Positions 1-56,500 of a stretch of 64,000 nt of DNA are shown here, in pieces. The notes below the pieces were generated by a model that made no database searches, was not told where the DNA came from, and saw only the letters and a program-made list of their open reading frames with translations. Both the position numbers and the translations under genes were made by a program. Source of the stretch: Escherichia coli (GTDB lineage: Bacteria; Pseudomonadota; Gammaproteobacteria; Enterobacterales; Enterobacteriaceae); the NCBI RefSeq assembly GCF_051903065.1, contig NZ_CP178438.1; one strand, given 5' to 3'. The stretch's first letter is position 1, and the number at the start of each line of letters is the position of its first letter.

Positions 1-415
1 CAATGTTTACAGCAAACCGCCGGTGAACATTCGCGCGCGTTTTGACGATCGCGGCGATCTGAGCTTTATGCAACGTGAATCCGATGGGGAAAAGCAGCAG
101 CTTTCTAACGACCAAATCGATTTATACCGTTATCGTGCTGATCAGATCCGCCAGATTAGCGATGCCTTACGTCAGGGGAGAGTCGTGCTGCGCCAGGGGC
201 GCTGGCATGCGATGGAACAGACCGTGACCACCTGCGAAGGGCAAACCATTAAACCTGATTTAGATTCGCAGGCGATAGCGCATATCGAGCGCCGCCAGAG
301 CCGCTCTTCTGTTGATGTCAGCGTGGCATGGCTGGAAGCGCCCGAAGGTTCGCAATTACTGTTAGTGGCAAACTCTGATTTCTGTCGCTGGCAACCCAAC
401 GAGAAAACGTTCTGA
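1..415 (+). CDS. yjaH: C-terminal part of DUF1481 protein YjaH (5' end lies outside the window)
   Basis: Open frame running from the window edge to the stop at 415; position upstream of zraP matches the K-12 order hupA-yjaH-zraP. Identity by synteny, not by confident sequence recall. Confidence 0.55.
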   Translation, partial: NVYSKPPVNIRARFDDRGDLSFMQRESDGEKQQLSNDQIDLYRYRADQIRQISDALRQGRVVLRQGRWHAMEQTVTTCEGQTIKPDLDSQAIAHIERRQSRSSVDVSVAWLEAPEGSQLLLVANSDFCRWQPNEKTF

Positions 416-416
416 T

Positions 417-842
417 TTACCAGTGGCCCATCCCCATATGACCGCCACCACCGCAGCCGCCGTAGCCCATGCCCATTCCGGCTCCGCGCGGAATACCCGC
501 TTCAGCCATCGCAATATCCCGTTTCACCCGTAACTCATCTAACGACTGACGCAAATTCTCCATCTCTTTGGCGACCGCGTTAATTTTGCTGCTATCCGGT
601 GGGTTCGCGGCTAACAGGGCATTGTATTCATAACGCTTCGTCACTAGTTGCTGTTGCAGTGCGCTGCTTTGAGCGTAAAAGTCATTATGGATTTTCTGCC
701 ACGCTGTCTGTTGTTCGCTGGTCAAAGGCGCGGCATTTTGCTGCCACATACCGTGTCCGCCGTGAGCAAATGCAGATGTCGATCCCATCGCCATTGCTGA
801 AAGCGCCATCATCACCAGGGCAATTTTCGTGTTCCGTTTCAT
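417..842 (-). CDS. zraP: Zinc-resistance-associated periplasmic protein ZraP
   Basis: 141-aa product starting MKRNTKIALVMMALSAMAMG (signal peptide) with a Gly/Met/His-rich C-terminus; start codon is CAT at 840-842 on the plus strand; divergent from zraS. Confidence 0.9.
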   Translation of the reverse strand: MKRNTKIALVMMALSAMAMGSTSAFAHGGHGMWQQNAAPLTSEQQTAWQKIHNDFYAQSSALQQQLVTKRYEYNALLAANPPDSSKINAVAKEMENLRQSLDELRVKRDIAMAEAGIPRGAGMGMGYGGCGGGGHMGMGHW

Positions 843-877
843 GGTTAATCCTCCAGTGGTTGTCTTACTTCGGGTAT

Positions 878-893
878 TGCATCTTCCGTGCCA
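878..893 (-). promoter_or_regulatory. Sigma-54 (-24/-12) promoter of zraP
   Basis: Reverse complement reads TGGCACGGAAGATGCA, with GG and GC at the canonical -24/-12 spacing. Confidence 0.6.
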
Positions 894-948
894 ACGATGA
901 AACGCTGATATGACGGGTAATCTGGCATGATAAACGAGTAAAAATGAC

Positions 949-992
949 TCGCCTGCTGCGGGTAGCGAGTCATTTTTACTCATTGAAACTTA
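949..992. promoter_or_regulatory. ZraR enhancer-binding palindrome between the divergent zraP and zraS promoters
   Basis: Near-perfect inverted repeat gagtaaaaatgactcgc ... gcgagtcatttttactc, centred between the two sigma-54 promoters. Confidence 0.6.
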
Positions 993-1032
993 AGCCTTTG
1001 TGTTACAGCGCAGGGTAAGCGCTGATAAAAGA

Positions 1033-1047
1033 TGGCATGATTTCTGC
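1033..1047 (+). promoter_or_regulatory. Sigma-54 (-24/-12) promoter of zraSR
   Basis: TGGCATGATTTCTGC, with GG and GC at the canonical spacing, about 35 bp upstream of the zraS start. Confidence 0.6.
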
Positions 1048-1079
1048 TGTCAGAAAGGGATGAGCAGGCAAAGAAGAAG

Positions 1080-2456
1080 ATGCGTTTTATGCAACGTTCT
1101 AAAGACTCCTTAGCTAAATGGTTAAGCGCGATCCTCCCCGTGGTCATTGTTGGGCTGGTAGGGTTGTTTGCGGTGACGGTGATTCGCGATTATGGGCGCG
1201 AGACTGCCGCTGCCAGACAAACGCTGCTGGAAAAAGGCAGTGTACTTATTCGTGCTCTCGAATCCGGCTCGCGCGTCGGCATGGGGATGCGCATGCATCA
1301 TGCGCAGCAGCAGGCCTTACTGGAAGAAATGGCCGGGCAGCCTGGAGTACGTTGGTTTGCGGTCACGGATGAACAAGGAACAATCGTGATGCATAGCAAC
1401 TCCGGCATGGTGGGAAAACAGCTTTATTCCCCGCAGGAAATGCAGCAGTTACATCCGGGAGATGAAGAAGTGTGGCGGCGGATCGATAGCGCAGACGGTG
1501 AGCCTGTTCTGGAAATTTATCGCCAGTTTCAACCGATGTTTGCTGCTGGAATGCACCGGATGCGCCATATGCAGCAGTATGCCGCGACACCACAAGCAAT
1601 TTTCATCGCTTTCGACGCCAGTAATATTGTGAGTGCCGAAGATCGTGAGCAGAGAAACACCCTGATTATCCTCTTCGCCCTGGCGACGGTCTTGCTGGCA
1701 AGCGTATTGTCATTCTTCTGGTATCGCCGCTATCTGCGCTCGCGCCAGCTTCTACAAGATGAAATGAAGCGCAAAGAGAAGCTGGTGGCGCTGGGGCATC
1801 TTGCGGCAGGCGTTGCCCACGAAATCCGTAACCCACTTTCCTCGATTAAAGGACTGGCGAAATACTTTGCCGAGCGCGCGCCTGCAGGGGGAGAAGCGCA
1901 TCAACTGGCGCAGGTGATGGCGAAAGAGGCCGACCGTTTAAACCGCGTGGTAAGCGAGTTGCTGGAACTGGTTAAGCCAACGCATCTGGCTTTGCAGGCG
2001 GTGGATCTCAACACGCTGATTAACCACTCATTACAGCTGGTAAGTCAGGATGCAAACAGCCGGGAGATCCAGTTACGCTTTACCGCCAACGACACATTAC
2101 CGGAAATTCAGGCCGACCCGGACAGGCTGACTCAGGTCCTGTTGAATCTCTATCTCAATGCTATTCAGGCGATTGGTCAGCATGGCGTGATTAGCGTGAC
2201 GGCCAGCGAAAGCGGCGCGGGCGTGAAAATCAGCGTTACCGACAGCGGTAAGGGAATTGCGGCAGATCAGCTTGATGCCATCTTCACTCCGTACTTCACC
2301 ACTAAAGCCGAAGGCACCGGACTGGGGCTGGCGGTCGTGCATAATATTGTTGAACAACACGGTGGTACAATTCAGGTCGCAAGCCAGGAGGGAAAAGGCT
2401 CAACGTTCACCCTCTGGCTTCCGGTCAATATTACGCGTAAGGACCCACAAGGATGA
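1080..2456 (+). CDS. zraS: Sensor histidine kinase ZraS
   Basis: 458-aa ORF with an N-terminal transmembrane segment, H-box HEIRNPL and ATPase G-boxes (DSGKGI, GTGLGL); the stop overlaps the zraR start. Confidence 0.9.
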   Translation: MRFMQRSKDSLAKWLSAILPVVIVGLVGLFAVTVIRDYGRETAAARQTLLEKGSVLIRALESGSRVGMGMRMHHAQQQALLEEMAGQPGVRWFAVTDEQGTIVMHSNSGMVGKQLYSPQEMQQLHPGDEEVWRRIDSADGEPVLEIYRQFQPMFAAGMHRMRHMQQYAATPQAIFIAFDASNIVSAEDREQRNTLIILFALATVLLASVLSFFWYRRYLRSRQLLQDEMKRKEKLVALGHLAAGVAHEIRNPLSSIKGLAKYFAERAPAGGEAHQLAQVMAKEADRLNRVVSELLELVKPTHLALQAVDLNTLINHSLQLVSQDANSREIQLRFTANDTLPEIQADPDRLTQVLLNLYLNAIQAIGQHGVISVTASESGAGVKISVTDSGKGIAADQLDAIFTPYFTTKAEGTGLGLAVVHNIVEQHGGTIQVASQEGKGSTFTLWLPVNITRKDPQG

Positions 2457-3778
2457 CGCACGATAATATCGATATTCTGGTGGTGGATGATGACATTAGC
2501 CACTGCACTATTTTGCAGGCTTTACTGCGCGGCTGGGGCTATAACGTCGCGCTGGCGAACAGCGGGCGACAGGCGCTGGAGCAGGTGCGGGAACAGGTTT
2601 TTGATCTTGTGCTTTGCGATGTGCGAATGGCGGAGATGGACGGCATCGCCACGCTGAAAGAGATCAAAGCGTTAAACCCGGCAATTCCGGTGCTGATTAT
2701 GACTGCGTACTCCAGCGTCGAGACGGCGGTAGAGGCACTGAAAACTGGGGCGCTGGATTATCTCATCAAGCCGCTGGATTTCGATAACCTACAGGCGACG
2801 CTGGAAAAGGCGCTCGCGCATACGCACAGTATTGATGCTGAAACACCTGCGGTGACTGCCAGCCAGTTCGGTATGGTCGGTAAAAGCCCGGCGATGCAAC
2901 ACCTGCTCAGTGAAATCGCCCTCGTCGCGCCATCGGAAGCCACGGTGCTGATCCACGGCGATTCCGGCACCGGTAAAGAGCTGGTCGCCAGGGCGATTCA
3001 CGCCAGTAGCGCACGTAGCGAAAAACCGCTGGTAACGCTCAACTGTGCGGCACTTAACGAATCCTTGCTGGAATCTGAATTGTTCGGTCACGAAAAAGGG
3101 GCGTTTACCGGAGCCGATAAACGCCGGGAAGGGCGCTTTGTTGAGGCGGACGGCGGCACGCTGTTTCTCGATGAAATTGGCGATATCTCGCCGATGATGC
3201 AGGTGCGTCTGCTGCGTGCGATTCAGGAGCGCGAAGTTCAGCGTGTCGGTAGCAACCAGACTATCTCGGTTGATGTCCGGCTGATTGCGGCGACCCATCG
3301 CGATCTTGCCGCAGAGGTGAATGCCGGGCGTTTTCGCCAGGATCTCTACTATCGCCTGAATGTGGTGGCGATTGAAGTACCATCGCTGCGGCAACGGCGG
3401 GAAGATATCCCTCTGCTGGCTGGCCATTTTCTTCAGCGCTTTGCCGAGCGTAATCGCAAGGCGGTAAAAGGCTTTACGCCACAGGCGATGGATTTGCTGA
3501 TCCACTACGACTGGCCGGGAAATATTCGTGAACTGGAAAACGCGGTGGAACGGGCGGTGGTGCTGCTGACCGGGGAATATATTTCCGAACGCGAGCTGCC
3601 GCTGGCGATTGCCGGTACGCCGATCCCGCTGGGGCAAAGTCAGGATATTCAGCCGCTGGTGGAAGTCGAAAAAGAAGTGATTCTGGCGGCACTGGAGAAA
3701 ACGGGCGGCAACAAAACCGAAGCCGCCCGTCAGTTAGGGATCACGCGCAAAACGCTATTGGCAAAACTGTCGCGTTAG
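2453..3778 (+). CDS. zraR: Sigma-54-dependent response regulator ZraR
   Basis: 441-aa ORF with receiver domain (VDDD...D), AAA+ sigma-54 activator motifs (GESGTGKE-like [14 protein letters not shown]) and a C-terminal HTH. Confidence 0.92.
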
Positions 3779-7280: not shown

Positions 7281-8822
<1,542 letters not shown>

Positions 8823-8907
8823 CCTTAAAGAAGCGTACTTTGCAGTGCTCACACAGATTGTCTGATAGAAAGTGAAAAGCAAGGCGTCTTGCGAAGCAGA
8901 CTGATAC

Positions 8908-8983
8908 GTCCCCTTCGTCTAGAGGCCCAGGACACCGCCCTTTCACGGCGGTAACAGGGGTTCGAATCCCCTAGGGGACGCCA
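8908..8983 (+). tRNA. gltV: tRNA-Glu (UUC) in the 16S-23S spacer
   Basis: GTCCCCTTCGTCTAGAGGCCCAGGACACCGCCCTTTCACGGCGGTAACAGGGGTTCGAATCCCCTAGGGGACGCCA, 76 nt with encoded CCA. Confidence 0.97.
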
Positions 8984-9176
8984 CTTGCTGGTTTGTGAGT
9001 GAAAGTCGCCGACCTTAATATCTCAAAACTCATCTTCGGGTGATGTTTGAGATATTTGCTCTTTAAAAATCTGGATCAAGCTGAAAATTGAAACACTGAA
9101 CAACGAAAGTTGTTCGTGAGTCTCTCAAATTTTCGCAACACGATGATGAATCGAAAGAAACATCTTCGGGTTGTGA

Positions 9177-12079
<2,903 letters not shown>

Positions 12080-12172
12080 ACAACGCCGAAGCTGTTTTGG
12101 CGGATTGAGAGAAGATTTTCAGCCTGATACAGATTAAATCAGAACGCAGAAGCGGTCTGATAAAACAGAATT

Positions 12173-12292
12173 TGCCTGGCGGCCGTAGCGCGGTGGTCCC
12201 ACCTGACCCCATGCCGAACTCAGAAGTGAAACGCCGTAGCGCCGATGGTAGTGTGGGGTCTCCCCATGCGAGAGTAGGGAACTGCCAGGCAT
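12173..12292 (+). rRNA. rrfE: 5S ribosomal RNA (rrfE)
   Basis: TGCCTGGCGGCCGTAGCGCGGTGGTCCCACCTGACCCCATGCCGAACTCAG ... GGGAACTGCCAGGCAT; 120 nt. Confidence 0.98.
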
Positions 12293-40329: not shown

Positions 40330-40570
40330 GGGTGGGCGCAGAGCGATACTTCGCTACTATTTTCACCCAGAAGTGCTCCACCACTTGCGAAACGCCCGAC
40401 TGCGAACGCTTCTGGTGACAACCCAGGGGATTCAGCCCCTGTAGCCGATGATGAACGTGGCCAGCCGTTCAATCACCTCGGCGATGCACCCCCTCAGGTG
40501 TTATCACAGGACTGGCTCCTCCAACACCGTTACTTGGGCAACGCGCCTCTTCTGGCCTGCGCTAGCGCAG
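40330..40570 (-). promoter_or_regulatory. Lysine riboswitch (L-box) in the lysC 5' leader
   Basis: Reverse complement contains GAGGCGCGTTGCCCAAGTAACGGTGTTGGAGGAGCCAGTCCTGTGATAACACCTGAGGGGGTGCATCGCCGAGGTGATTGAACGGCTGGCCACG..., which I recognise as the E. coli lysC leader; boundaries approximate. Confidence 0.8.
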
Positions 40571-42455: not shown

Positions 42456-42552
<97 letters not shown>

Positions 42553-42615
42553 TCGATGCCGATATGTACATCGTATTCGGCAATTAATGCATAGCACGAT
42601 TAATTAAATAACCTT

Positions 42616-42652
42616 AAAAACAATGCCGACTATAAGTCGGCATTGTTTTATC
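42616..42652 (+). terminator. Rho-independent terminator downstream of pgi
   Basis: Hairpin caatgccgact-ataa-gtcggcattg followed by ttttatc. Confidence 0.75.
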
Positions 42653-42957
42653 AGATAAATCTCCTTGTCTGTGATTTAACGGAAATCATACCGTGAGGTT
42701 AATCCTAAAATAGATTTTTAATCGTGATTTATTTCGGAAAATACTCAGATTAATTACTTTTGCTTTTATTTTAACACTATGATTTTTAATGTTATTTATA
42801 TATAAGTTGTAGCTTATATTTGATATTCATTCCAATTATCCTAAAACCCCATCTCTAATTCCCCGCGCCGTAATTCGCATGCTTTAGTTGTGTATACTCG
42901 ATCCCGCCCGAAATGTTTTTGGGTAAATCTCCATTCATTCAATGAAGGGAAATTGTT

Positions 42958-50582: not shown

Positions 50583-52127
50583 TTAATCAAACTTCATTCG
50601 CGTGGCTTTCAGGTTCACTATCGCCAGCGCACCCACCAGCAGGAAGATCAGCGTGGCAATTGCTGCTGCCAGACCGAAGTCCTGACCCCCGCCGCCTTCA
50701 AAAGCGATGCGGTAGGTGTAGTTAACAAGCAGGTCGGTATAACCGGCTGGCGTGGTCGTGCCAAGACGATCCGGGCCGCCGTTGGTTAACAGTTGAATCA
50801 GCACGAAGTTGTTAAAGTTAAAGGCGAAGCTGGCGATCATCAGCGGCGTCAGCGGTTTAATCAGCAGCGGCAGCGTAATCTTAAAGAAGTTCTGGAACGG
50901 ACCTGCACCATCCATTGCTGAGGCTTCATACAAATCGTCCGGAATCGCTTTCAGCAAGCCCATGCAGAGGATCATCATGTACGGATAGCCCAGCCAGGTA
51001 TTGACGATAATCAACATCGTTCGGGCGGTGGTCGGATCGCTGAACCAGGCGGGCTTCACGCCAAACAGCGCGCTCAACATCATGTTGATCTCACCGAAGC
51101 TCTGGTTAAACAACCCTTTGAAAATCAAGATTGAAATGAACGATGGCACCGCGTAGGGCAGAATCAGCAGGACGCGATAGACCGCTTTGCCGCGCAACGC
51201 TTCCCACTGCACCAGACATGCCAGAACCATGCCGACCGCCACCGTTAAAAAGACGGTGATCAGTGAAAACACCACGGTCCAGACGAAAATGGCGAGGAAC
51301 GGTTTCTGAATGCCTTCGTCGGTAAAGACGCGGGTAAAGTTTTTCCAGCCAGTAGTCACGGTGTAACCGGGGCTTAGCTTTTCATCGCCCCAGTTGCCGT
51401 CGGCGGTAATGGACTGGTAAAAGCCAATTTGGTTATTCGGACGATATTTCACGCCGCTCTGATTATTCGTCAACGTGCCGTCACCGTCGAGTGTGTAGAG
51501 CGGCTGCGTGCCAGAAAACTGGCGTAGGGAGCTCATCATCACTTTGTTGCCATCCGGCAGAATGGCGGTAATGTCACTCAGCGCCTGACGATTCTGGGTA
51601 ATAACGCGTAGATTCGCGCGTTCGCCTTCGGGCTGGGCGGTCGTTTCTTTCAGTTGCAGTTTTTGCTCGCCGCCAAATTTAAAAGCGTCGGAAAGGTAAT
51701 TTTTGCCGGTTTCGCCGTCGCTGAGGGCTAGTTGCCACTCATCGCCCGCCGGGTAAAGACCAAAATTATAGGTTTTGCCTGCTTGCCAGGAGCGATCTAA
51801 CAACACTTCCTGCGCACGTTCAAAAGTCAGCTGGTTAGTGCTGCTGTAGTTGGTGAAGGCAATGGCGATGGTGCAGACCAGAGGGAAGAGGACGAATAAT
51901 CCCATTCCAGCCATTCCCGGGTAAACATAGCGCCAGGCGTAGGCTTTACGATTGGCGAAAATATACAGCCCCGCTGAACTCAATATCAGCGTGGTAATGG
52001 CGAACAGGTATTCCCCTTGTGCGTACATTAAAACAACAAGGTAACCCACCAGCAGGCCGAGCAGACCTAACACTGACCATTTCAGCGCGTCGCTTTGCCA
52101 CCAATGTTTCTTTTTAATGACATCCAT
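50583..52127 (-). CDS. malF: Maltose ABC transporter permease MalF
   Basis: About 514 aa from [17 protein letters not shown]; start placed at that Met rather than the upstream ORF Met. Confidence 0.93.
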
Positions 52128-52149
52128 GGGGTTCTTCCTCATTCCAGGA

Positions 52150-52275
52150 CGGATAAGGCTTTCACGCCTTATCCGACAACAACTGCCTGATGCGACGCTG
52201 ACGCGTCTTATCAGACCTACATACGTTTCGGTTTTGTAGGCCGGACAAGGCGTTCACGCCGCATCCGGCATTTCA
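52150..52275. repeat. REP/BIME cluster in the malE-malF intergenic region
   Basis: ggataaggctttcacgccttatccgac ... gcctgatgcgacgctgacgcgtcttatcagacctac ... gtaggccggacaaggcgttcacgccgcatccggc. Confidence 0.9.
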
Positions 52276-56363: not shown

Positions 56364-56377
56364 TAGCAAAACCTGGG

Positions 56378-56500
<123 letters not shown>

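What the first reader, a model, noticed from the sequence alone, without database searches (positions are those of the whole stretch)
417..842. ZraP carries a Gly/Met/His-rich C-terminal tail
The C-terminus reads …IPRGAGMGMGYGGCGGGGHMGMGHW, a low-complexity tail typical of metal-binding chaperones. Noted only as a sequence feature.
Basis: seen in the sequence. Interest (0 to 1): 0.1.

Follow-up and report, generated by a model that had tools for sequence, protein, structure and literature searches.

The report
Known ZraP tail, conserved Gly/Met/His motif

Summary
Confirmed and already known. Window 417-842 (minus strand) encodes the 141-aa E. coli ZraP, identical in protein to the K-12 version. 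It ends exactly as quoted: ...IPRGAGMGMGYGGCGGGGHMGMGHW.

The last 23 residues are 78% Gly+Met+His. No other stretch in the window's ORFs of at least 100 aa comes close (99.9th percentile 39%).

The tail is a motif, not random low complexity. Across 22 enterobacterial orthologues, M125, G126, C130, G133, G134, H135, M138 and G139 are invariant and W141 nearly so. A Gly/Tyr/His/Arg insert of 0-10 residues between the Cys and the His varies in length.

The tail lies outside the Pfam Metal_resist domain. AlphaFold2 gives it pLDDT below 50, and it appears to be missing from the Salmonella crystal model 3LAY.

A search with the helical core alone found 95 distant relatives with a tail; 54 of these tails are at least 40% Gly+Met+His. 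E. coli CpxP and Spy have no such tail.

E. coli carries in-frame tail-length alleles: 141 aa, 139 aa, and a rare 136-aa allele that lacks the Cys.

The function was not tested here. My best reading is a flexible arm carrying Cys/His/Met/Trp that helps ZraP assemble and respond to metal. Interest is low.

The parts
417..842 (-). zraP coding sequence, 141 codons plus a TAA stop at 417-419
   Evidence: Translation. NCBIfam NF008584 scores 274 bits over residues 1-141. The RefSeq annotation of the identical locus is zraP, WP_000828222.1.
765..842 (-). Signal peptide, residues 1-26: MKRNTKIALVMMALSAMAMGSTSAFA, with inferred cleavage after A-F-A
   Evidence: Read directly from the sequence: a basic N-terminal region, a hydrophobic core and an AxA site. 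A26 is invariant in 22 orthologues. No signal-peptide predictor was available.
744..764 (-). N-terminal His/Gly/Met motif of the mature protein, HGGHGMW (residues 27-33). It mirrors the C-terminal GHMGMGHW.
   Evidence: G31 and M32 are invariant and Q34/Q35 nearly invariant. AlphaFold2 pLDDT is below 50 for residues 1-36.
501..719 (-). Helical hairpin core, helices 42-78 and 84-114. The single LTSEQ (LTXXQ-type) motif at residues 40-44 sits at its start.
   Evidence: Pfam PF13801 Metal_resist covers residues 8-120, E = 4.8e-23. AlphaFold2 pLDDT is above 90. Foldseek superposes the model on 3LAY chains with target-normalised TM 0.87-0.94 and rmsd 1.0-1.7 A.
420..488 (-). The Gly/Met/His-rich C-terminal tail, residues 119-141: RGAGMGMGYGGCGGGGHMGMGHW
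   Evidence: Searches give the composition. It lies outside the Pfam domain. M125, G126, C130, G133, G134, H135, M138 and G139 are invariant and W141 nearly so. pLDDT is below 50 for 122-141.
453..455 (-). Codon of Cys130, the only cysteine of the protein
   Evidence: codon TGC. Invariant in 22 orthologues. Removed by a 9-nt in-frame deletion in E. coli LB858871.
438..440 (-). Codon of His135, the conserved histidine of the tail. His140 varies among His, Asn and Arg.
465..476 (-). Direct repeat ATGGGC ATGGGC encoding Met-Gly-Met-Gly (residues 123-126). Loss of one unit gives the 139-aa allele.
   Evidence: BL21(DE3) and other strains carry the 6-nt shorter allele.
878..893 (-). Sigma-54-type promoter (-24/-12) of zraP: TGGCACGGAAGATGCA
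   Evidence: Pattern search. No sigma-70-like promoter was found in 300-1200. The divergent sigma-54 promoters of zraP and zraSR are described in PMC4987338.
933..984 (.). 20-nt inverted repeat, arms 933-952 and 965-984 (GAGTAAAAATGACTCGC / GCGAGTCATTTTTACTC), between the two promoters. It is the likely ZraR enhancer-binding site.
   Evidence: 95% complementary, 12 nt between the arms. The assignment to ZraR is inference from its position and from my recollection of Leonhartsberger et al. 2001.
1033..1048 (+). Sigma-54-type promoter of zraSR: TGGCATGATTTCTGCT
1080..3778 (+). zraS (1080-2456) and zraR (2453-3778), the two-component system that controls zraP
   Evidence: ORFs of 458 and 441 aa. 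RefSeq annotation of the identical locus.

Best explanation
This is the C-terminal arm of E. coli ZraP. ZraP is the periplasmic, zinc-responsive accessory chaperone and repressor of the ZraSR envelope-stress system.

Shown here:
- The protein is a signal peptide, a short His/Gly/Met N-terminal arm, a two-helix hairpin, and a 23-residue glycine-spaced tail.
- The tail carries a fixed set of side chains: Met125, Cys130, His135, Met138 and Trp141.
- It has a variable-length Gly/Tyr/His/Arg insert between the Cys and the His.
- It is predicted to be disordered, and it appears to be absent from the crystal model.

Inferred:
- The hairpin is antiparallel, so the N- and C-terminal arms leave it side by side. 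In the helical-barrel oligomer (a decamer in 3LAY), many such arms would therefore cluster at one rim.
- I think the tail most likely acts as a flexible assembly and ligand arm. It would help dimers associate into the higher oligomer, and offer Cys/His/Met ligands and a Trp anchor that couple Zn/Cu binding to ZraP's chaperone and repressor activities.

The identity of the gene is near certain. The specific mechanism is about even odds.
For: Identity.

Motif conservation across genera whose proteins are only 67-73% identical overall: with the raw tails.

Disorder: AlphaFold2 pLDDT is below 50 for residues 122-141. The 3LAY construct includes the tail (175 aa), but the modelled chains hold only 77-81 residues, all matching the hairpin.

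Family-wide recurrence, from a search with the core only, so not driven by tail composition. In 95 distant relatives the tails are 28.5% Gly, 9.7% Met, 5.1% His, 2.7% Cys and 2.2% Trp, against 4.7, 3.1, 1.3, 0.2 and 0.5% in their cores. 64 of 95 tails contain Cys, and 29 of 95 have Trp within the last three residues.

Selection within E. coli: the five other alleles read all keep the reading frame. Window versus K-12 shows 5 synonymous and 0 non-synonymous codon differences in the gene.

Literature:
- Zinc-binding, zinc-dependent chaperone and zinc-bound repressor (PMC4987338, PMC10848872).
- 'Two zinc-binding domains' (PMC9175090, PMC3852070).
- Higher affinity for Cu than for Zn (PMC8836040).
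- From my memory of the abstract of Petit-Hartlein et al. [quoted passage not shown]
Against: No experiment or multimer model here tests oligomerisation or metal binding by the tail.

The primary papers could not be read, so the oligomerisation role rests on my recollection.

One complete E. coli genome carries an allele lacking the 'invariant' Cys, and single Salmonella entries have Cys replaced by Tyr, Phe or Trp. The Cys is therefore not indispensable for viability.

His140 is not conserved.

Gly/Met/His richness before the core and after the core are not correlated among distant relatives (Fisher p = 0.49). This gives no support to an obligatory two-arm composite site.
Confidence: 0.55

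Rival explanations
1. The tail is mainly a direct metal-binding or scavenging site. Its Cys, His and Met side chains would chelate Zn(II), Cu or Pb in the periplasm, following the original 'zinc-associated protein' model with N- and C-terminal binding motifs.
For: Cys130, His135, Met125 and Met138 are invariant. Reviews citing Noll et al. 1998 and Appia-Ayme et al. 2012 describe two zinc-binding domains (PMC9175090, PMC3852070) and chelation of zinc (PMC8264917). ZraP binds Cu more tightly than Zn (PMC8836040), which suits Cys/Met ligands. From memory, His + 2 Met + Trp is the Cu(I) ligand set of CusF, and the terminal H-M-G-M-G-H-W offers the same residues.
Against: As I recall Petit-Hartlein et al. 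2015, the four metal sites per octamer lie near the N-terminus and Zra proteins do not confer zinc or copper resistance. His140 is variable. A natural allele lacks the Cys. Nothing here measures binding.
Confidence: 0.25
2. The tail is a flexible, weakly hydrophobic client-binding element. [quoted passage not shown]
For: ZraP is a chaperone (PMC4987338). 3LAY is described as an alpha-helical barrel decamer. The tail is Gly/Met-rich and disordered. GroEL's Gly-Met tails are functionally required, and their flexibility and hydrophobicity matter (PMC11978752). Gly/Met-rich tails dominate in distant relatives.
Against: The strictly conserved Cys, His and terminal Trp are not explained by a generic flexible hydrophobic tail. 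The other E. coli chaperones of this fold, Spy and CpxP, work without such a tail. No client-binding data were available.
Confidence: 0.15
3. The tail is the part of ZraP that contacts the periplasmic domain of ZraS, or other envelope proteins such as ZntA, to deliver the zinc-dependent repressing signal.
For: Zinc-bound ZraP represses zraPSR (PMC10848872). A review reports the proposal that the C-terminal domain of ZraP modulates transporters such as ZntA (PMC3852070). zraP is paired with zraSR through divergent sigma-54 promoters.
Against: Two distant relatives with similar tails do not sit next to a ZraSR-like system on the short contigs available. No interaction data exist here.
Confidence: 0.1
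4. The tail is functionless low-complexity sequence produced and maintained by replication slippage in a G-rich tract.
For: Short direct repeats occur in the coding DNA and in-frame length variants occur in E. coli: a 6-nt and a 9-nt deletion. The insert length varies between genera.
Against: Eight tail positions are invariant across 22 orthologues that differ at about 30% of positions overall. All five other E. coli alleles read keep the frame and the terminal HMGMGHW. Tandem Repeats Finder reports no DNA tandem array. The same composition recurs in relatives of 25-45% core identity.
Confidence: 0.03

Closest known systems
ZraP (YjaI) of E. coli K-12 and Salmonella Typhimurium (PDB 3LAY)
   Same: The protein is identical to the K-12 lineage protein WP_000828222.1. 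It matches the ZraP equivalog model over its full length and sits in the same yjaH-zraP-zraSR context. The helical hairpin superposes on 3LAY.
   Different: Nothing differs from K-12 at the protein level. The Salmonella tail has one Met-Gly unit fewer and an 8-residue Gly/Tyr/His/Arg insert (aligned against two E. coli Gly), so it is 4 residues longer (GYGGCGGYGGGYHRGGGHMGMGNW). It ends in Asn-Trp rather than His-Trp.
CpxP and Spy (E. coli periplasmic LTXXQ-family proteins)
   Same: Both are periplasmic, have a helical hairpin fold, respond to envelope stress and act as accessory proteins or chaperones. CpxP 3QZC appears among the fold matches (E = 0.9).
   Different: Neither has a Gly/Met/His tail. 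CpxP ends in a Ser-rich stretch and Spy in RPAAKGKMPATAE. Both have a second LTPEQ motif where ZraP's tail begins. The Pfam LTXXQ and NCBIfam CpxP and Spy scores of ZraP fall below their cutoffs. BLASTP of ZraP against Spy finds nothing.
CnrX (Cupriavidus metallidurans metal sensor; the founding structure of Pfam Metal_resist, as I recall)
   Same: It belongs to the same Pfam family, PF13801, and is the best non-ZraP structural match (query-normalised TM about 0.51, probability 0.99-1.0).
   Different: Sequence identity is only 15-17%. CnrX binds Ni/Co at a site inside the helical domain (from memory), not in a Gly-rich tail.
[quoted passage not shown]
   Same: A disordered Gly/Met repeat at the C-terminus of an oligomeric chaperone, with many copies converging in one assembly (PMC11978752).
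   Different: The protein, compartment and fold are unrelated. GroEL tails lack the conserved Cys, His and Trp. This is an analogy only.
CusF / PcoE / SilE-type periplasmic Met/His metal sites
   Same: Periplasmic location and His/Met (plus Trp in CusF) ligand chemistry. This comparison is from memory and was not tested.
   Different: No sequence or fold relationship was shown here.

Membership tests
ZraP (NCBIfam NF008584, zinc resistance sensor/chaperone ZraP) | Full-length match to the equivalog model above its curated cutoff | tested here: met
   274.4 bits against a cutoff of 200. Residues 1-141 align to model positions 1-145 of 145.
ZraP (NCBIfam NF008584, zinc resistance sensor/chaperone ZraP) | Divergently transcribed from zraSR, with sigma-54 promoters and an enhancer-binding site between them | tested here: met
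   zraS and zraR ORFs lie at 1080-3778. GG-N10-GC promoters lie at 878-893 (-) and 1033-1048 (+). A 20-nt inverted repeat lies at 933-984. No sigma-70-like site was found.
ZraP (NCBIfam NF008584, zinc resistance sensor/chaperone ZraP) | Exported to the periplasm (cleavable signal peptide) | tested here: met
   By inspection only: MKRNTK, then a hydrophobic core, then AFA followed by H. A26 is invariant. No dedicated predictor was run.
ZraP (NCBIfam NF008584, zinc resistance sensor/chaperone ZraP) | Helical hairpin fold as in the solved ZraP structure | tested here: met
   The AlphaFold2 core has pLDDT above 90. Foldseek against 3LAY gives E = 2e-7, target-normalised TM 0.87-0.94 and rmsd 1.0-1.7 A.
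ZraP (NCBIfam NF008584, zinc resistance sensor/chaperone ZraP) | Conserved C-terminal G-M-G-Y-G-G-C-G-G...G-G-H-M-G-M-G-x-W motif | tested here: met
   Present in the window protein. The positions are invariant or nearly invariant in 22 orthologues.
ZraP (NCBIfam NF008584, zinc resistance sensor/chaperone ZraP) | Zinc/copper binding, zinc-dependent chaperone activity and repression of zraPSR | not testable with these tools
   Known for the identical K-12 protein, and seen here only through reviews (PMC4987338, PMC10848872, PMC8836040).
Pfam PF13801 Metal_resist | Domain match above the gathering score | tested here: met
   82.1 bits against 29.2, residues 8-120. The tail, residues 121-141, lies outside the domain.
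CpxP/Spy family (Pfam PF07813 LTXXQ; NCBIfam CpxP and Spy equivalogs) | Match above the curated cutoffs, and two LTXXQ motifs | tested here: not met
   PF07813 scores 16.8 bits against 24.3. The CpxP model scores 20.9 against 148, over the signal-peptide region only. The Spy model scores 12.3 against 174. There is only one LTSEQ motif, and the second LTPEQ of CpxP and Spy has no counterpart.
GroEL-type Gly-Met client-binding tail (functional analogy, not homology) | The tail projects into the cavity of the oligomer and contacts clients | not testable with these tools
   Only composition and disorder could be shown. The tail is not modelled in 3LAY.

The most novel reading that the evidence does not exclude
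Gly/Met/His-rich flanks with a late Cys and a terminal Trp recur in more than half of the distant Metal_resist (PF13801) relatives found with the core alone. I found no description of this in the searchable literature.

The most novel reading is that these flanks are an unrecognised, family-wide functional module. They could form a soft-metal (Cu(I)/Zn) site of the CusF type (His + 2 Met + Trp), or act as a GroEL-like client-binding brush. Either would gate assembly of the helical barrel. The natural E. coli tail-length alleles (141, 139 and 136 aa, the last lacking the Cys) would then tune the threshold of the Zra envelope-stress response.
Probability: 0.2. Interest if true: 0.35.

Novelty: already known. 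Interest (0 to 1): 0.08.

Why it matters
It matters little for discovery.

The modest value added here is threefold:
- The tail is a position-specific conserved motif rather than mere low complexity.
- Similar tails are a recurrent trait of the wider Metal_resist family but are absent from the E. coli proteins CpxP and Spy.
- E. coli populations carry in-frame tail-length alleles, including a rare one without the Cys. These are ready-made natural variants for testing what the tail does.

Tried and rejected
- Primary papers. Noll 1998, Appia-Ayme 2012 and Petit-Hartlein 2015 are not held. Searches for ZraP with 'LTXXQ', 'octamer' or 'C-terminus' found nothing useful.
- Badly built literature searches. 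Two searches with min_terms set too low returned irrelevant papers. One search did surface the GroEL tail paper.
- DNA tandem repeats. Tandem Repeats Finder found none in 380-900, so the tail is not a DNA tandem array. Only the 2 x 6-nt ATGGGC repeat is visible by eye.
- PDB profile search with the orthologue alignment.
- Test for linked N- and C-terminal arms among distant relatives. Not significant (Fisher p = 0.49).
- Genomic context of two distant relatives with extreme tails. The contigs are short and show no ZraSR-like genes.
- Upstream start codon. The 188-aa ORF starting at ATG 983 is not the real start. It would run through the enhancer site and the sigma-54 promoter. The annotated ATG at 842 has a GGAGGA ribosome-binding site just upstream and matches the family model from residue 1.
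- Scans not run. The answer would not change the verdict.

Full report
**Observation.** The minus strand of window 417-842 translates to a 141-residue protein plus a TAA stop. Residues 119-141 (window 420-488) hold 12 Gly, 4 Met, 2 His and one each of Cys, Tyr, Trp, Arg and Ala. That is 78% Gly+Met+His, against 11% in the rest of the mature protein. I scored 19,436 windows of 23 residues from all ORFs of at least 100 aa in the 64-kb window. The mean is 12% and the 99.9th percentile is 39%. All ten windows at or above 50% fall inside this tail.

**Identity.**
- Window 1-1500 is 100% identical to many E. coli chromosomes and is present in 5,420 of 5,426 complete genomes.
- RefSeq annotates the stretch as yjaH, then zraP (on the opposite strand), then zraS and zraR.
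- The protein accession, WP_000828222.1, is the same as in a K-12 derivative.
- The protein matches the NCBIfam ZraP equivalog over its whole length: 274 bits against a cutoff of 200.
- It matches Pfam Metal_resist over residues 8-120 and the Salmonella ZraP entry 3LAY at E = 2e-51.
- The regulatory setting is the expected one. GG-N10-GC sigma-54-type promoters face outwards at 878-893 (-) and 1033-1048 (+).
- A 20-nt inverted repeat lies between the two promoters, at 933-952 and 965-984.
- No sigma-70-like promoter was found in 300-1200.
- This agrees with the published description of divergent sigma-54 promoters for zraP and zraSR (PMC4987338).

**Anatomy of the tail.** The Pfam domain stops at residue 120, so the tail is not part of any curated domain. 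I aligned 22 orthologues from Escherichia, Citrobacter, Salmonella, Kosakonia and others; they are 67-73% identical to the window protein, apart from one 99%-identical E. coli allele (P0006).
- Invariant: M125, G126, C130, G133, G134, H135, M138, G139.
- At least 90% conserved: G120, G124, G129, G131, G137, W141.
- His140 varies among His, Asn and Arg.
- A Gly/Tyr/His/Arg insert of 0-10 residues sits between the Cys and the conserved His.

The tail is therefore a glycine-spaced motif with fixed Cys, His, Met and Trp positions, not unconstrained low complexity. The mature N-terminus, HGGHGMW, has the same character, and its G31-M32 are invariant.

**Structure.**
- AlphaFold2 on this alignment gives two long helices, 42-78 and 84-114, at pLDDT above 90.
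- It gives pLDDT below 50 for residues 1-36 and 122-141.
- Foldseek places the model on the 3LAY chains with target-normalised TM 0.87-0.94.
- Those chains contain only 77-81 modelled residues, although the deposited construct is 175 residues long and includes the tail.
- The tail therefore appears to be unresolved in the crystal, which agrees with the predicted disorder.
- Because the hairpin is antiparallel, the N- and C-terminal arms leave it side by side. This last point is inference.

- Sequence profiles do not reach CpxP, Spy or CnrX in the PDB. By fold, CnrXs and CpxP are the next matches after 3LAY.
- E. coli CpxP and Spy, fetched from MG1655, have no such tail. CpxP ends in a Ser-rich stretch and Spy in RPAAKGKMPATAE.
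- Both carry a second LTPEQ motif at about the point where ZraP's tail begins.
- To avoid composition bias, I searched 1.84 billion representative proteins with the helical core only, residues 33-118.
- Of 95 distant relatives with at least 10 residues after the core, 54 have tails of at least 40% Gly+Met+His.
- Pooled tail composition against core composition is Gly 28.5 vs 4.7%, Met 9.7 vs 3.1%, His 5.1 vs 1.3%, Cys 2.7 vs 0.2% and Trp 2.2 vs 0.5%.
- 64 of 95 tails contain Cys, and 29 of 95 have Trp within the last three residues.
- 34 of 84 relatives are also Gly/Met/His-rich just before the core.
- Richness before and after the core are not correlated (Fisher p = 0.49).

So the tail type is typical of the ZraP/Metal_resist branch, though not of the E. 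coli proteins CpxP and Spy.

**Variation within E. coli.**
- A 104-nt query covering the tail matched 5,395 genomes. Identity was at least 95% in 3,395 and 90-95% in 1,995.
- Every sampled row in the lower band spans 6 nt less than the query.
- BL21(DE3) shows why: one ATGGGC unit of the ATGGGC-ATGGGC repeat is missing, giving a 139-aa protein with ...RGTGMGYGGC....
- Roughly a third of complete genomes therefore carry the shorter allele. This is an estimate from identity bands, not a count.
- Strain LB858871 has a 9-nt in-frame deletion that removes Gly-Cys-Gly, including the only cysteine, giving 136 aa.
- All five other alleles read keep the frame and the terminal GGGGHMGMGHW.
- The window differs from K-12 at 5 codons of zraP, all synonymous.

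**Function.** None of this tests function. The held literature consists of reviews and secondary citations only. It says that ZraP:
- is a zinc-binding, zinc-dependent periplasmic chaperone (PMC4987338);
- represses zraPSR when zinc-bound (PMC10848872);
- has 'two zinc-binding domains' (PMC9175090 and PMC3852070, citing Noll 1998 and Appia-Ayme 2012);
- binds Cu more tightly than Zn (PMC8836040, citing Petit-Hartlein 2015).

The primary papers are not held. From memory, the abstract of Petit-Hartlein et al. 2015 places four interfacial metal sites per octamer near the N-terminus and assigns the C-terminus to polymerisation into a tetramer of dimers. Also from memory, Taher & de Rosny 2021 report that the single Cys is at least partly reduced in the periplasm.

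Putting this together, my best reading (about even odds) is that the tail is a flexible assembly and ligand arm. It would help dimers build the helical-barrel oligomer and contribute Cys, His, Met and Trp side chains that link metal occupancy to chaperone and repressor activity.

Rivals:
- A pure metal-scavenging site.
- A GroEL-like Gly-Met client-binding brush (analogy from PMC11978752).
- A ZraS- or transporter-contact peptide.
- Neutral slippage-generated sequence. The conservation data largely exclude this one.

**Verdict.** The finding is correct, correctly interpreted in outline, and already known. It deserves a low interest score. The only mildly new points are the family-wide recurrence of such tails and the natural in-frame tail alleles in E. 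coli, including one without the Cys.

Noticed in passing
window 465-476 (-); L002 401-820; L006 401-820: E. coli carries two common ZraP tail-length alleles. The 141-aa form has GMGMGY and the 139-aa form has GMGY. They differ by one unit of an ATGGGC-ATGGGC direct repeat. About 1,995 of 5,395 complete genomes fall in the identity band that corresponds to the shorter allele, BL21(DE3) among them.
   Followed up: partly
L004 561-971 (E. coli LB858871, NZ_CM142823.1): A rare 136-aa ZraP allele has a 9-nt in-frame deletion that removes Gly-Cys-Gly, so it lacks the otherwise invariant single cysteine. It is annotated as an intact zraP.
   Followed up: partly
Protein clusters P0001, P0016, P0021-P0036: Many metagenome and Logan protein clusters show ZraP with a frameshifted tail reading into ...AAAVVAVIWVWATGKSERF..., or with stop-codon read-through (P0001, 92 members...GHWKIRTFSRW...). 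These could be assembly or gene-calling errors at the G-rich tract, or real stop-loss or frameshift variants.
   Followed up: no
window 413-419: yjaH (plus strand, stop codon ending at 415) and zraP (minus strand, stop codon at 417-419) converge with a single base between their stop codons. The terminator scan found no intrinsic-terminator-like hairpin in 300-1200.
   Followed up: no
window 51208-51223 (-): There is a third exact match to the sigma-54-type pattern TGGCAYN6TGCW (TGGCATGTCTGGTGCA). About one match is expected by chance in the window, so it may mean nothing.
   Followed up: no
L007 493-1440; L008 885-2112: Two distant Metal_resist proteins with extremely Gly/Met/His-rich flanks (P0185, P0218) each lie shortly downstream of a small SHOCT-domain ORF. 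In L007 the next genes are CcmF/CcmH-like cytochrome c maturation genes rather than a ZraSR-like system.
   Followed up: no
window 417-983 (-): The mechanical ORF list extends zraP to 188 aa from an upstream ATG at 983. That extension runs through the enhancer repeat and the sigma-54 promoter. The real start is the ATG at 842, which is preceded by GGAGGA.
   Followed up: yes
window 7281-12290 (+), 40363-40559 (-), 18601-18678, 42475-42546, 52147-52217, 56376-56446 (+), 42612-42761 (-): Ordinary landmarks of this E. coli region. They are a complete rRNA operon with one tRNA in the spacer at 8908-8980, a lysine riboswitch, four REP-type naRNA4 elements, and an STnc430 sRNA match.
   Followed up: no
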